Positions 1 to 1,050 of a DNA stretch of 1,050 nt are shown here, piece by piece; position 1 is the first letter of the stretch, and each line of letters starts with the position of its first letter. This stretch comes from Naegleria gruberi. Lineage: Eukaryota. A program made the translations under genes and the position numbers. The stretch is taken from assembly GCA_000004985.1 (NCBI GenBank), contig GG739593.1; one strand, 5' to 3'. The notes under the pieces are model-generated. The model saw nothing but the letters and a program-made list of their open reading frames with translations, did no database searches and was not told the origin of the DNA.

Positions 1-34
1 ATTATTTTCAGGTCTCAATTCTGGTGCGTCTAAT

Positions 35-826
35 TTAGTAAGATTGACCTCCTTTTATATTATTACCTTCAAGATGTAGATATTTCAAGTGTTCCAGTAA
101 TTGATAATTTGCAAAAAGGATATTGATAATAAAGAAACCAAAAAGCACAAGCCTCTTGGTATATGGAGAAATTGCAATTTTTAGCGCAGGTTTTGGTGCA
201 CCAAAAGCTATCGAATGATCTGGACATGACAGTTGAATATTAACCAATTCCAAATCTTCAATACCACTAAAATCGAGAAGATCACTAAATAAATGCACTC
301 TATGTAATTTCAAAGTTTTAAGATTTGAAAGCAGGGGAAGGTTGAAAGGAGTATGATAACGTCTGCAAATTATTGAGAGTCTTTCCATATTTGGAGGAAA
401 TGTTTGAATCTCTTCCAAGTCAACATCCTCTACTTCGAAATTCTTAACACTTTCTGGATATTCTACCGGTTCATCTGTCAAATCAACACAGTTTTCAATT
501 CCATCTTGAGTAAGATCGATGATCTTGGCTGGATCTACATTTTCTCCCAAAGCTCCATCATCATTGAAATTATTTCTGGTAATTACAACAGTTTCAAGGA
601 AGGGATATCGGTTCAGACCAGCAATGTTAGCTTCTGGTGATATAGTTACAGTTCTAATAATGTTGCAAAATTTAAAGTTTGGATCGGAGAATTTAAATCT
701 TATCAATATAGAATCTGGAAAGGCAAATGATAGAATATAGAGTTTAATTTCGGTTGGAAATTGCTTGAGAGAGTTGTAGAATACTTCCTCTTGATGTCTT
801 CTTCTTGTGATTGATCGGATGGTCAT
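35..826 (-). CDS. Alternative shorter isoform or true start at M43 (263 aa, 'MTIRSITRRRHQEEVFYNSLKQFPTEI...'). Same frame and stop as the long ORF, with the F-box ~18 residues from the N-terminus.
   Basis: ATG at 824-826 (minus strand) is immediately preceded by an A10 tract, 'aatcaaaaaaaaaatcATGac', with A at -3. That is the classic A-rich yeast initiation context. F-box motifs usually sit at the extreme N-terminus. This is the first AUG reached after the out-of-frame uORF (913-960) terminates. Confidence 0.35.
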   Translation of the reverse strand: MTIRSITRRRHQEEVFYNSLKQFPTEIKLYILSFAFPDSILIRFKFSDPNFKFCNIIRTVTISPEANIAGLNRYPFLETVVITRNNFNDDGALGENVDPAKIIDLTQDGIENCVDLTDEPVEYPESVKNFEVEDVDLEEIQTFPPNMERLSIICRRYHTPFNLPLLSNLKTLKLHRVHLFSDLLDFSGIEDLELVNIQLSCPDHSIAFGAPKPALKIAISPYTKRLVLFGFFIINILFANYQLLEHLKYLHLEGNNIKGGQSY

Positions 827-952
827 GATTTTTTTTTTGATTAGTTTGTCAATTTCCAACAAACAGGTTTTTAATAGAATATATTTTGCAAAATCAACTC
901 GAGTTGATTGTTCTAAAATTTGTGCCAAGGAACACAAAAACTTGTCAACCAT
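35..952 (-). CDS. Putative F-box / leucine-rich-repeat protein (305 aa; stop TAA at 35-37). F-box-like motif 'LKQFPTEIKLYILSFAFPD' at residues ~62-80, acidic D/E-rich linker at residues ~127-190, LRR-like C-terminus ending 'LEHLKYLHLEGNNIKG'.
   Basis: A 918-nt open frame is very long for a ~33% GC, stop-codon-rich sequence. The residues look like real protein rather than low complexity. 'LxxFPxEIxLxILSF' matches the core of the F-box consensus (LxxLPxEILxxIxxxL). 'LPLLSNLKTLKLHRVHL', 'LLDFSGIEDLELVNIQL' and 'LLEHLKYLHLEGNNI' fit the LxxLxxLxLxxNxI LRR pattern. Codon usage is consistent across the ORF (AGA Arg x3 at 797-805, TTG Leu, GGT Gly). The start context gcaATGg has a purine at -3 and G at +4. 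Confidence 0.8.
   Translation of the reverse strand: MVDKFLCSLAQILEQSTRVDFAKYILLKTCLLEIDKLIKKKIMTIRSITRRRHQEEVFYNSLKQFPTEIKLYILSFAFPDSILIRFKFSDPNFKFCNIIRTVTISPEANIAGLNRYPFLETVVITRNNFNDDGALGENVDPAKIIDLTQDGIENCVDLTDEPVEYPESVKNFEVEDVDLEEIQTFPPNMERLSIICRRYHTPFNLPLLSNLKTLKLHRVHLFSDLLDFSGIEDLELVNIQLSCPDHSIAFGAPKPALKIAISPYTKRLVLFGFFIINILFANYQLLEHLKYLHLEGNNIKGGQSY
53..367 (-). other. Leucine-rich-repeat-like C-terminal region (residues ~196-300)
   Basis: There are three or more segments with LxxLxxLxLxx(N/C)xL spacing. The last one, 'LLEHLKYLHLEGNNIKG', is a near-textbook LRR and sits just before the stop. Confidence 0.45.
191..206. repeat. Perfect 16-bp palindrome TTTTGGTGCACCAAAA, centred on GTGCAC, inside the CDS (it encodes FGAPK on the minus strand).
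   Basis: Verified base by base: the sequence equals its own reverse complement. Flanking bases 190 (g) and 207 (g) break the symmetry. Confidence 0.9.
653..781 (-). other. F-box-like domain (residues ~58-100: FYNSLKQFPTEIKLYILSFAFPDSILIRFKFSDPNFKFCNIIR)
   Basis: By-eye match to the F-box consensus: L62, F65-P66, E68-I69, L71, I73-L74, then a hydrophobic-rich continuation. The trailing half is degenerate, with no clear VSKxW-like segment. Confidence 0.45.
829..838. repeat. Homopolymer T10 on the plus strand (A10 on the coding strand). It encodes KKK in the long ORF, or forms the A-rich leader of the M43 start.
   Basis: Positions 829-838 are all t, flanked by a at 828 and g at 839. Confidence 0.95.
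892..909. repeat. Perfect 18-bp palindrome AATCAACTCGAGTTGATT, centred on CTCGAG, inside the N-terminal part of the long ORF (it encodes QSTRVD).
   Basis: Verified base by base: the sequence equals its own reverse complement. Flanking bases 891 (a) and 910 (g) break the symmetry. Confidence 0.9.
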
Positions 953-960
953 TGCATCAT
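913..960 (-). other. Short overlapping upstream ORF (ATG ATG CAA TGG TTG ACA AGT TTT TGT GTT CCT TGG CAC AAA TTT TAG, giving MMQWLTSFCVPWHKF*). It is out of frame with the main ORF and overlaps it.
   Basis: Read directly from the minus strand. Two consecutive ATGs lie at 958-960 and 955-957, 3-10 nt upstream of the main ATG (950-952), in a different frame. A stop is reached at 913-915. This is a potential translational control element, not a gene. Confidence 0.25.
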
Positions 961-1050
961 TGCAAATTTAACCCAAACGGAAACACAGTTTTTCAAGTTG
1001 ACTAAACTTGTTAAAATACTTTACAAAAGTAAAAACATTTTATTATCCCA
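953..1050 (-). promoter_or_regulatory. AT-rich 5' flank of the minus-strand gene. It contains TATA-like elements: 'ATAATAAAA' (complement of 1038-1046), 'GTATTTTAAC' (complement of ~1011-1020) and 'TTAAATTT' (complement of ~962-969).
   Basis: This is sequence composition only. An in-frame stop (TAA, complement of 968-970) closes the ORF just upstream of the first ATG. TATA-like A/T blocks lie 10-95 nt upstream of the ATG. No experimental or comparative support is available from this window. Confidence 0.25.

What the first reader, a model, noticed from the sequence alone, without database searches (positions are those of the whole stretch)
824..960. Ambiguous translation start: two out-of-frame AUGs just upstream of the annotated ATG, and an in-frame M43 in optimal context after an A10 tract
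On the minus strand the sequence reads ...tttgcaATGATGcaATGGTTGAC.... The first two ATGs (958-960, 955-957) are out of frame with the main ORF and open a 15-codon uORF ending at TAG (913-915). The main-ORF ATG (950-952) is the third AUG in 11 nt. No further ATG occurs on this strand until 824-826 (M43), which is in the main frame and preceded by aaaaaaaaaatc, a yeast-optimal A-rich leader. So there are three models. (a) The mRNA 5' end lies between 953 and ~957, or leaky scanning operates, and the 305-aa protein is made. (b) The uORF is translated and ribosomes reinitiate at M43, giving a 263-aa protein with an N-terminal F-box. (c) The transcript starts downstream of ~912 and residues 1-42 are not coding. 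Under (c) the open N-terminal extension would be chance; the chance of 42 stop-free codons in random sequence is roughly 0.05-0.15.
Basis: seen in the sequence. Interest (0 to 1): 0.5.

Follow-up and report, generated by a model that had tools for sequence, protein, structure and literature searches.

The report
Ordinary gene start; upstream ATGs noncoding
The three closely spaced upstream ATGs and the 42-codon in-frame "extension" are real in the sequence, but they lie in the short AT-rich spacer between two Naegleria gruberi genes; the protein almost certainly starts at the downstream ATG (M43), as the public annotation already says, so this is an ordinary gene start.

Summary
The sequence pattern is exactly as described (ATGs at 960, 957, 952, then none until 826; 15-codon uORF; A10 before ATG 826). 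The organism is Naegleria gruberi, not yeast. The window is an entire orphan 1050-bp scaffold. Its public gene model (XP_002667944.1, 263 aa) already starts at "M43" (ATG 826-824), not at 952.

An independent 98%-identical copy (ENA contig L001) carries a net 10-nt deletion at window 863-876. There the 952-type ATG is out of frame and opens only a 33-codon dead-end ORF, while the 478-codon ORF from M43 is intact. The only paralogue (75% identical to the window ORF) also begins at the M43 position. The extension has intergenic composition (27.8% GC against 34%) and no clear codon-order signal (z = 0.69; real coding windows average 2.8). An upstream same-strand gene stops at 1045-1043, only 90 nt before ATG 952.

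Best reading: 827-1042 is an intergenic spacer or leader, M43 is the start, and the open extension is chance (P about 0.04-0.06). Reinitiation after the uORF cannot be excluded without TSS data.

The 305- and 263-aa lengths are artefacts: an extra G at position 52 creates a false stop, and the real protein is about 478 aa. Interest is low.

The parts
1043..1050 (-). Last codons and stop of the upstream same-strand gene (...M G *; TAA at 1045-1043), the counterpart of N. gruberi NAEGRDRAFT_82029.
   Evidence: In L001, ORF 1354-2646 ends ...STAMG* at the aligned position. That ORF is 429/430 identical to the C-terminus of P0006 (XP_002669783.1).
827..1042 (-). 216-nt AT-rich spacer between the upstream gene's stop and the true start codon. 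It must hold the upstream gene's 3' UTR plus this gene's promoter and 5' leader, and it contains all the upstream ATGs.
   Evidence: GC is 27.6-27.8% against 34% in the CDS. The spacer is 206 nt in L001. RNA fold z = -0.03 for 815-965. No Rfam match near any gathering score.
1021..1038 (-).
913..960 (-). Out-of-frame 15-codon uORF (MMQWLTSFCVPWHKF, TAG 915-913) opened by ATG 960 and ATG 957.
   Evidence: It is identical in L001, but the flanks are identical too, so this says nothing about selection.
827..952 (-). 42-codon in-frame 'N-terminal extension' from ATG 952-950. Judged noncoding.
   Evidence: It is out of frame in L001, where it becomes a 33-codon dead-end ORF. It has intergenic GC. 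Codon likelihood against stop-free shuffles gives z = 0.69, whereas true coding windows average 2.8. No Pfam hit. No homologue covers residues 1-42.
863..876 (-). Complex indel relative to L001. The window has a net 10 extra bases (not a multiple of 3), and these alone put ATG 952 in frame with M43.
829..838 (-). A10 tract directly upstream of the start codon (context aaaaaaaaaatcATGa).
   Evidence: Similar A-runs precede the other N. gruberi gene starts seen: L001 110 'ctttaaaaaaaatATG' and L002 'catataaaaaATGtct'.
824..826 (-). True initiation codon ('M43'), which is the start of the public model XP_002667944.1 / EFC35200.1.
   Evidence: P0001, P0003 and P0002 all begin here (MTIRSITRR / MTMIRSITRR).
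1..826 (-). Coding sequence of an LRR protein, about 478 aa when complete. It is reliable from 826 to 53, and it runs off the scaffold end.
   Evidence: L001 2854-4290 encodes the intact 478-aa P0003. After position 52 the window continues in another frame as KEVNLTKLDAPEL..., matching P0003 and P0002. Pfam LRR PF25019 scores 27.4 bits against a cutoff of 27 on P0003.
35..52 (-). Extra G at 52 (a frameshift) and the resulting false stop TAA 37-35, which produce the spurious C-terminus ...GGQSY*.
   Evidence: Further 1-nt deletions lie at about 17, 11 and 1044, so all single-base indels fall within 52 nt of the scaffold ends.
892..909 (.). Perfect 18-nt palindrome AATCAACTCGAGTTGATT inside the spacer. 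Role unknown; possibly a promoter or protein-binding site, or a small hairpin.
   Evidence: I1, arms 884-900 and 901-917; local hairpin in the MFE structure, but overall z = -0.03; self reverse match.

Best explanation
The window is a complete 1050-bp orphan scaffold of Naegleria gruberi. On the minus strand it carries three things in order: the last two codons of an upstream gene (stop at 1045-1043), a 216-nt AT-rich spacer (1042-827), and the 5' 60% of an LRR-protein gene whose real start codon is ATG 826-824 ('M43').

The ATGs at 1038, 960, 957 and 952 are chance ATGs in spacer DNA. The 42-codon frame linking ATG 952 to M43 is open by chance in this copy and is not part of the protein.

The most likely mechanism is inferred, not shown. 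Transcription starts downstream of about 950, possibly about 20-30 nt below the TATA-like AAATATATT...TATTAAAAA at 886-868. That gives a short A-rich leader in which M43 is the first AUG and is used by ordinary cap-dependent scanning.

Shown here: the M43 start agrees with the public model and with both relatives, and the extension is frame-disrupted in a near-identical copy. Inferred: the position of the TSS.
For: 1. Identity and annotation. The 263-aa public protein P0001 (XP_002667944.1, N. gruberi) matches residues 43-305 at 100%, and its contig length is 1050.
2. Second copy. ENA contig L001 is 98% identical across the whole window. It differs in the extension by a net 10-nt indel at window 863-876. 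There the 952-type ATG is in frame +2 and ends after 33 codons at a TAA, and only 19 codons are open upstream of M43, with no ATG among them. The ORF from M43 is intact for 478 codons.
3. Paralogue. P0002 (474 aa; 75% identical to the window ORF, 83% to full-length P0003) starts MTMIRSITRR, which aligns to M43.
4. No other relatives. No protein in 5.8 billion clusters or 1.84 billion representatives covers residues 1-42.
5. Composition. The extension is 27.8% GC, the upstream spacer 27.6% and the CDS 34%. Only 0-2.7% of 126-nt in-frame windows of four N. gruberi ORFs are that AT-rich.
6. Codon order. The extension scores z = 0.69 against stop-free dinucleotide shuffles, and 24.5% of shuffles score at least as high. 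Forty-nine real coding windows average z = 2.82 (sd 1.42), and only 8% score as low as the extension.
7. Space. The upstream gene is 429/430 identical to NAEGRDRAFT_82029 and stops 90 nt before ATG 952 but 216 nt before ATG 826. A comparable same-strand spacer in L002 is about 170-180 nt.
8. Start context. All three N. gruberi gene starts seen have an A5-A10 run immediately before the ATG, and ATG 952 lacks one. A preprint ranks a Naegleria genome among those with the strongest start-context signal (10.64898/2026.06.25.734688).
9. Upstream AUGs. ATG 960 and ATG 957 lie 2-7 nt upstream of ATG 952 and have a purine at -3. A transcript that included them would seldom initiate at 952.
Against: - The 47-codon open frame upstream of M43 is moderately unlikely by chance: P = 0.04-0.06, and 0.013 if an in-frame ATG is also required.
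- ATG 952 has a classically good context (G at -3, G at +4).
- The frame disruption is a single event in a single additional copy.
- The window is a low-quality scaffold, so I cannot tell which version of 863-876 is correct or whether both exist as alleles.
- The codon-order test is weak. It rests on about 1150 training codons, and 8% of true coding windows score as low as the extension.
- No transcript, TSS or proteomic data were available.
- The paralogue's upstream DNA could not be retrieved.
Confidence: 0.82

Rival explanations
1. Model (b): a long leader with uORFs. The transcript starts upstream of 960. Ribosomes translate the 15-codon uORF (960-913) and a fraction reinitiates 87 nt downstream at M43. 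The protein still starts at M43, but its synthesis is translationally damped or regulated.
For: The uORF is short, and the next AUG after its stop is M43, in an A-rich context. That spacing and length are favourable for reinitiation by general knowledge of eukaryotic scanning. The uORF is intact in L001. Nothing in the sequence excludes this model.
Against: - uORF identity in L001 is uninformative, because the whole flank is identical.
- A leader of at least 135 nt would leave at most 82 nt for the upstream gene's 3' UTR and this gene's promoter.
- In the window copy, ATG 952 would then also yield an N-terminally extended product, while in L001 it would be a second, overlapping 33-codon uORF ending 14 nt before M43. 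Such variable consequences argue against a selected arrangement.
- The leader has no special RNA structure (z = -0.03).
Confidence: 0.13
2. Model (a): the long form is real. Translation starts at ATG 952, either through a TSS between 953 and 957 or through leaky scanning, and adds 42 N-terminal residues (MVDKFLCSLAQ...KKKI) to the protein.
For: There is an open 42-codon frame with an ATG (P about 0.013 by chance). ATG 952 has G at -3 and G at +4. The in-frame codon log-odds of the extension (0.017 per codon) lies within the range of real windows when stop codons are not controlled for.
Against: - The extension is out of frame in the 98%-identical copy L001, whose main ORF is intact.
- It is absent from the public model and from the paralogue.
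- It has intergenic GC and no clear codon-order signal once stop-freeness is controlled.
- There is no family or homologue match.
- Two out-of-frame AUGs with a purine at -3 sit 2-7 nt upstream.
- Only 90 nt separate it from the upstream gene's stop.
Confidence: 0.04
3. The in-frame relation is a sequence artefact. The window is a one- or two-read Sanger scaffold with base-calling errors. The 863-876 difference, and therefore the whole 'in-frame extension', may not exist in the organism at all.
For: Four single-base indels relative to L001 all lie within 52 nt of the scaffold ends. One of them (the extra G at 52) creates the false stop of the annotated model. The scaffold is an unplaced 1050-bp piece.
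Against: The 863-876 difference is a complex 10-nt replacement about 175 nt from the scaffold end, unlike the homopolymer-type single-base errors at the ends. The intervening 800 nt differ only by four clean substitutions, which looks like true allelic or strain variation. This rival does not change the conclusion that M43 is the start.
Confidence: 0.15

Closest known systems
Ordinary eukaryotic gene start with chance upstream ATGs in a compact intergenic spacer (public model XP_002667944.1 / NAEGRDRAFT_77145, which starts at M43)
   Same: The start codon, the reading frame and the N-terminal sequence MTIRSITRR... are identical to the deposited model and to P0003. The paralogue begins MTMIRSITRR at the same aligned position.
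   Different: The deposited model is C-terminally wrong. A 1-nt insertion at window 52 gives ...GGQSY*, whereas the intact copy encodes 478 aa.
uORF-mediated reinitiation control (GCN4/ATF4-type leaders)
   Same: A short (15-codon) uORF is followed about 87 nt later by the main AUG.
   Different: There is no evidence that the uORF is transcribed. There is no informative conservation, and little room for a long leader. The third upstream AUG has different consequences in the two copies.
Alternative N-terminal isoforms from in-frame upstream AUGs (leaky scanning or alternative TSS)
   Same: An in-frame upstream AUG in good -3/+4 context lies 42 codons upstream.
   Different: The in-frame relation is lost in the near-identical second copy, and the extension has no clear coding signature.
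F-box/LRR (FBXL-type) substrate adaptors
   Same: The full-length protein has a leucine-rich repeat region (Pfam PF25019 at threshold; PDB LRR hits at E = 6e-4). By eye there is an LPxEI-like motif, FPTEIKLYILSF, near the N-terminus.
   Different: No Pfam F-box family matches, even at E <= 10 on the isolated N-terminus. The AlphaFold model is too poor there (pLDDT < 50) to test the fold.

Membership tests
N-terminally extended protein isoform (in-frame upstream AUG) | The upstream AUG stays in frame with the main ORF in related copies. | tested here: not met
   In L001 (98% identical) the equivalent ATG (2738) is in frame +2 relative to the main ATG (2854) and terminates after 33 codons.
N-terminally extended protein isoform (in-frame upstream AUG) | The extension shows a coding signature (composition and codon order like the rest of the gene). 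| tested here: not met
   GC is 27.8% against 34%. Codon likelihood gives z = 0.69 against a mean of 2.82 for real windows. The test has limited power, since 8% of real windows score as low.
N-terminally extended protein isoform (in-frame upstream AUG) | Homologues carry the extension. | tested here: not met
   P0001, P0002 and P0003 all start at the M43 position. No other relatives exist in either protein library.
uORF-regulated mRNA (reinitiation type) | The uORF lies inside the transcribed 5' leader. | not testable with these tools
   No transcript or TSS data were reachable. The spacer geometry (90 nt from the upstream stop to ATG 952) makes it less likely.
uORF-regulated mRNA (reinitiation type) | The uORF is conserved beyond background in orthologues or paralogues. 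| tested here: inconclusive
   It is identical in L001, but so is all flanking DNA. The paralogue's upstream DNA was not retrievable.
F-box protein | Significant match to an F-box or F-box-like profile. | tested here: not met
   Pfam gives no F-box family at E <= 1 on the 305-aa ORF or at E <= 10 on the 78-aa N-terminus, P0003 or P0002. The only N-terminal hit is PF20150 at E = 0.12, below its cutoff.
F-box protein | Three-helix F-box fold at the N-terminus. | tested here: inconclusive
   The AlphaFold2 model of P0002 has mean pLDDT 48.5, and residues 1-59 are below 50. No fold search was run, because the model is unreliable.
Leucine-rich repeat protein | Match to LRR profiles. | tested here: met
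   PF25019 scores 27.4 bits (cutoff 27) on P0003, with several weaker LRR families. The PDB profile search hits LGR4 LRRs at E = 6e-4. The model shows a repeated beta-strand pattern in residues 120-300.
Truncated or frameshifted gene model on a low-quality scaffold | An intact longer ORF in a near-identical copy, with single-base indels explaining the premature stop. | tested here: met
   The extra G at window 52 is absent from L001. Downstream of it the window reads KEVNLTKLDAPEL... in another frame, matching P0003 and P0002.

The most novel reading that the evidence does not exclude
The spacer is transcribed from upstream of 960. In that case the gene would be under uORF/reinitiation control, and a 10-nt indel polymorphism would switch the third upstream AUG between two roles: making an N-terminally extended LRR protein (window allele) and acting as a second, inhibitory uORF (L001 allele). 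That would be a natural allelic switch in start-site usage in Naegleria.
Probability: 0.07. Interest if true: 0.35.

Novelty: already known. Interest (0 to 1): 0.08.

Why it matters
It matters little beyond annotation hygiene. The analysis confirms the deposited start codon of NAEGRDRAFT_77145. It also shows that the deposited C-terminus is an artefact of a base-calling error on an orphan scaffold: the true product is about 478 aa, an LRR protein restricted to N. gruberi. As a practical point, long stop-free stretches upstream of a start codon arise by chance at the level of a few per cent in AT-rich, gene-dense protist genomes. A single near-identical second copy can be enough to separate coding sequence from spacer.

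Tried and rejected
- Cross-species alignment and dN/dS of the N-terminus was impossible. The HMMER scan of 1.84 billion representatives returned only the protein's own cluster, and the word-indexed search returned only P0001 and P0002.
- The paralogue's upstream DNA could not be retrieved. P0001, P0002, the 305-aa ORF and P0006 are not on record in the contig index. Degenerate-pattern scans of JGI metagenomes and GTDB genomes found no relatives. The Logan contig L003 from the same run stops inside the upstream gene.
- The first codon log-odds test appeared to favour coding, with frame 0 scoring well above the other frames. I rejected it as unfair, because off-frame and intergenic windows are penalised for stop codons and two of the 'intergenic' training stretches are probably unrecognised exons or introns of the 767-aa gene. 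I replaced it with a comparison against stop-free dinucleotide shuffles, with positive controls.
- I looked by eye for an intron that could rescue the frame in L001 (GT...AG candidates in 2738-2854). The only short candidate, a 37-nt stretch ending at TTTTAG, runs into a stop in both copies. This was inspection, not a tool result.
- Neither a structured RNA nor a known RNA family explains the leader (fold z = -0.03; no Rfam match near any gathering score).
- Structure prediction to test the F-box gave an unreliable model (pLDDT 48.5), so no fold search was run.
- Literature searches for Naegleria 5' UTR lengths, TSSs or Kozak consensus gave only one usable statement, that N. lovaniensis has a very strong start-context signal. 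The genome paper is not held, and PRJEB11402 is not mentioned in any held paper.
Full report
**What is in the window**

On the minus strand the sequence reads ...tttgcaATGATGcaATGGTTGAC....
- ATGs lie at 960-958 and 957-955, in frame +1 relative to the long ORF, and at 952-950 in the long-ORF frame.
- No further ATG occurs until 826-824, which is in frame 42 codons downstream and is preceded by A10 (838-829) plus 'tc'.
- The first two ATGs open MMQWLTSFCVPWHKF, ending at TAG 915-913.
- The mechanical ORF from 952 to 35 is 305 aa.

Three points were missed. A fourth upstream ATG sits at 1038-1036 (MFLLL*). The in-frame open stretch upstream of M43 is 47 codons, back to TAA 970-968. All of these AUGs carry a purine at -3.

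**Where it comes from and what is annotated**

The ORF matches two proteins of Naegleria gruberi.
- P0001 (XP_002667944.1 / EFC35200.1, NAEGRDRAFT_77145) is 263 aa and 100% identical over residues 43-305. Its contig is 1050 bp long, so the window is a whole orphan scaffold.
- P0002 (XP_002669784.1, NAEGRDRAFT_53961) is 474 aa and 75% identical to the window ORF. It lies on a 209,908-bp scaffold.

The public model therefore already starts at 'M43' (MTIRSITRR...). The paralogue starts at the equivalent position (MTMIRSITRR...). The finding's phrase 'annotated ATG (950-952)' and its yeast framing are both mistaken. An exhaustive HMMER scan of 1.84 billion representative proteins found nothing outside this cluster.

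**A second, near-identical copy**

The 90% cluster of P0001 contains a 478-aa member, P0003, from an ENA assembly of run ERR1078381. Its 4524-bp contig, L001, was retrieved. Other ORFs from that run are 429/430 and 315/315 identical to N. gruberi reference proteins, so the run contains N. gruberi DNA.

L001 aligns to the entire window at 98% identity. The differences, in window coordinates, are:
- four substitutions in the CDS: 670, 450, 347 and 77;
- single-base indels at about 1044, 52, 17 and 11, all within 52 nt of the scaffold ends;
- one complex indel at 863-876, where the window has a net 10 extra bases.

Ten is not a multiple of three. In L001 the ATG equivalent to 952 is therefore out of frame with M43. 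It opens a 33-codon ORF that stops 14 nt before the main ATG, and only 19 ATG-free codons are open upstream of M43. The ORF from M43 runs intact for 478 codons. A region that tolerates a frame-breaking indel between copies that otherwise differ by about 0.5% is behaving as noncoding DNA.

**Context**

L001 shows that a same-strand gene lies immediately upstream. Its last exon-like ORF (1354-2646) ends ...STAMG*, and the window's first eight minus-strand bases (1050-1043) are the end of that gene.

That gene is the counterpart of NAEGRDRAFT_82029 (767 aa). Its stop is 90 nt upstream of ATG 952 and 216 nt upstream of ATG 826. The spacer has to hold the upstream 3' UTR as well as this gene's promoter and leader. 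In L002, a comparable same-strand spacer is about 170-180 nt, and two convergent genes share 133 nt. A start at 826 fits this geometry. A start at 952 leaves very little room. This step is an inference.

**Coding signal**

- The extension is 27.8% GC, like the upstream spacer (27.6%) and unlike the CDS (34%). Only 0-2.7% of in-frame 126-nt windows in four N. gruberi ORFs are that AT-rich.
- A naive codon log-odds test looked favourable to coding, but it is confounded by stop codons.
- Against stop-free dinucleotide shuffles of itself, the extension scores z = 0.69, and 24.5% of shuffles score at least as high. Forty-nine true coding windows, scored with cross-validated tables, average z = 2.82 (sd 1.42), and 8% are as low as the extension.
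- This is moderate evidence against coding.
- The chance of the open frame, from shuffles of the spacer, is 0.06 for >=42 codons, 0.04 for >=47 codons, and 0.013 for an ATG-started extension of >=42 codons. That is unusual for one gene but expected many times over in a genome of many thousands of genes (the genome-scale point is my own reasoning).

**Start context**

I could inspect three N. gruberi gene starts, and each has an A-run directly before the ATG:
- ctttaaaaaaaatATG, the signal-peptide start of the 767-aa gene at L001 110;
- atcaaaaaaaaaatcATG, this gene;
- catataaaaaATGtct, in L002.

ATG 952 (tgatgcaATGg) has no A-run. A 2026 preprint reports N. lovaniensis among the genomes with the strongest start-context signal. 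Two out-of-frame AUGs with a purine at -3 lie 2-7 nt upstream of ATG 952. Any mRNA that included them would rarely initiate at 952.

**Other checks**

- The leader has no unusual RNA structure (z = -0.03) and no Rfam match near any gathering score.
- A perfect 18-nt palindrome (892-909) and a TATA-like stretch (868-886, overlapping the indel) lie in the spacer. Their roles are unknown.
- Pfam finds no F-box. The LRR region is supported on the full-length protein. An AlphaFold2 model was too poor to test the N-terminal fold.

**The protein lengths are artefacts**

An extra G at window 52 shifts the frame and creates ...GGQSY* (stop 37-35). Without it the reading continues KEVNLTKLDAPELETL..., matching P0003 and P0002, and runs off the scaffold. 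The real product is about 478 aa, not 263 or 305.

**Conclusion**

M43 (ATG 826-824) is the start codon, and 827-1042 is spacer or leader. The three-AUG cluster and the open extension are chance features of AT-rich intergenic DNA (confidence about 0.82).

Within that conclusion, a short leader with the TSS downstream of about 950 is the most likely arrangement. A long leader with uORF translation and reinitiation at M43 remains possible (about 0.13). The long form from ATG 952 is unlikely (about 0.04). TSS mapping and the upstream sequence of the paralogue would settle the matter.

This is an ordinary, already correctly annotated start. The only correction to public data concerns the truncated C-terminus.

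Noticed in passing
window 35-52 (also about 17, 11 and 1044): Relative to the 98%-identical contig L001, the window has an extra G at 52, which creates the false stop at 37-35, and further 1-nt deletions near both ends. The deposited 263-aa model is therefore C-terminally truncated and wrong. The intact gene encodes 478 aa.
   Followed up: yes
window 1043-1050; L001 110-2646: The window starts, on the minus strand, with the last codons of an upstream same-strand gene, the counterpart of NAEGRDRAFT_82029. That protein is 767 aa, with a signal peptide, repeats of roughly 90 aa (G-G-K-S-K-x-L-N-K) and an acidic Pro-rich tail. A prokaryote-style gene caller split it into three ORFs, so it probably contains introns.
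   Followed up: partly
whole window / L001 / reference scaffold of 209,908 bp: In the reference, NAEGRDRAFT_82029 (EFC37039.1) and the paralogue P0002 (EFC37040.1) have consecutive accessions on one scaffold. In L001 the gene after 82029 is the window-type gene, which is only 83% identical to P0002, although the upstream gene is 99.8% identical. The window is therefore either a very divergent allele of that locus or a tandem duplicate lost from the assembly. No P0002-type sequence was seen from run ERR1078381.
   Followed up: partly
window 892-909 (arms 884-900 / 901-917): A perfect 18-nt palindrome, AATCAACTCGAGTTGATT, lies in the spacer about 66-85 nt upstream of the true ATG and is identical in L001. 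It could be a protein-binding site or a small hairpin. The region as a whole folds no better than shuffles.
   Followed up: partly
window 868-886: A TATA-like AT stretch (AAATATATTCTATTAAAAA) lies 42-60 nt upstream of ATG 826. The 10-nt indel relative to L001 removes its second half (TATTAAAAA) but keeps AAATATATT.
   Followed up: no
L001 97-112; L001 2838-2856; L002 about 2384 (minus strand): All three plausible N. gruberi gene starts inspected have an A5-A10 run immediately 5' of the ATG. In L002 the gene caller chose the second ATG, but 'tataaaaaATGtctctaATG' suggests that the first ATG is the real start.
   Followed up: partly
protein family (P0001, P0002, P0003): No relative was found outside N. 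gruberi among 1.84 billion representative proteins, so this LRR protein is an orphan, lineage-specific family. No F-box is detectable by Pfam, despite an LPxEI-like motif (FPTEIKLYILSF).
   Followed up: yes
L001 4375-4400: About 85 nt downstream of the gene's stop there is an odd A-rich repeat, 'aaaaaaaaaATGaaaaaaaATGaaaaaaaa', with only a short ORF behind it. It was not examined further.
   Followed up: no
L003 (Logan contig of ERR1078381), end at 2237: The independent Logan assembly of the same run breaks inside the upstream gene at 2237, whereas the ENA assembly continues. This could reflect a coverage or haplotype branch point near this locus.
   Followed up: no
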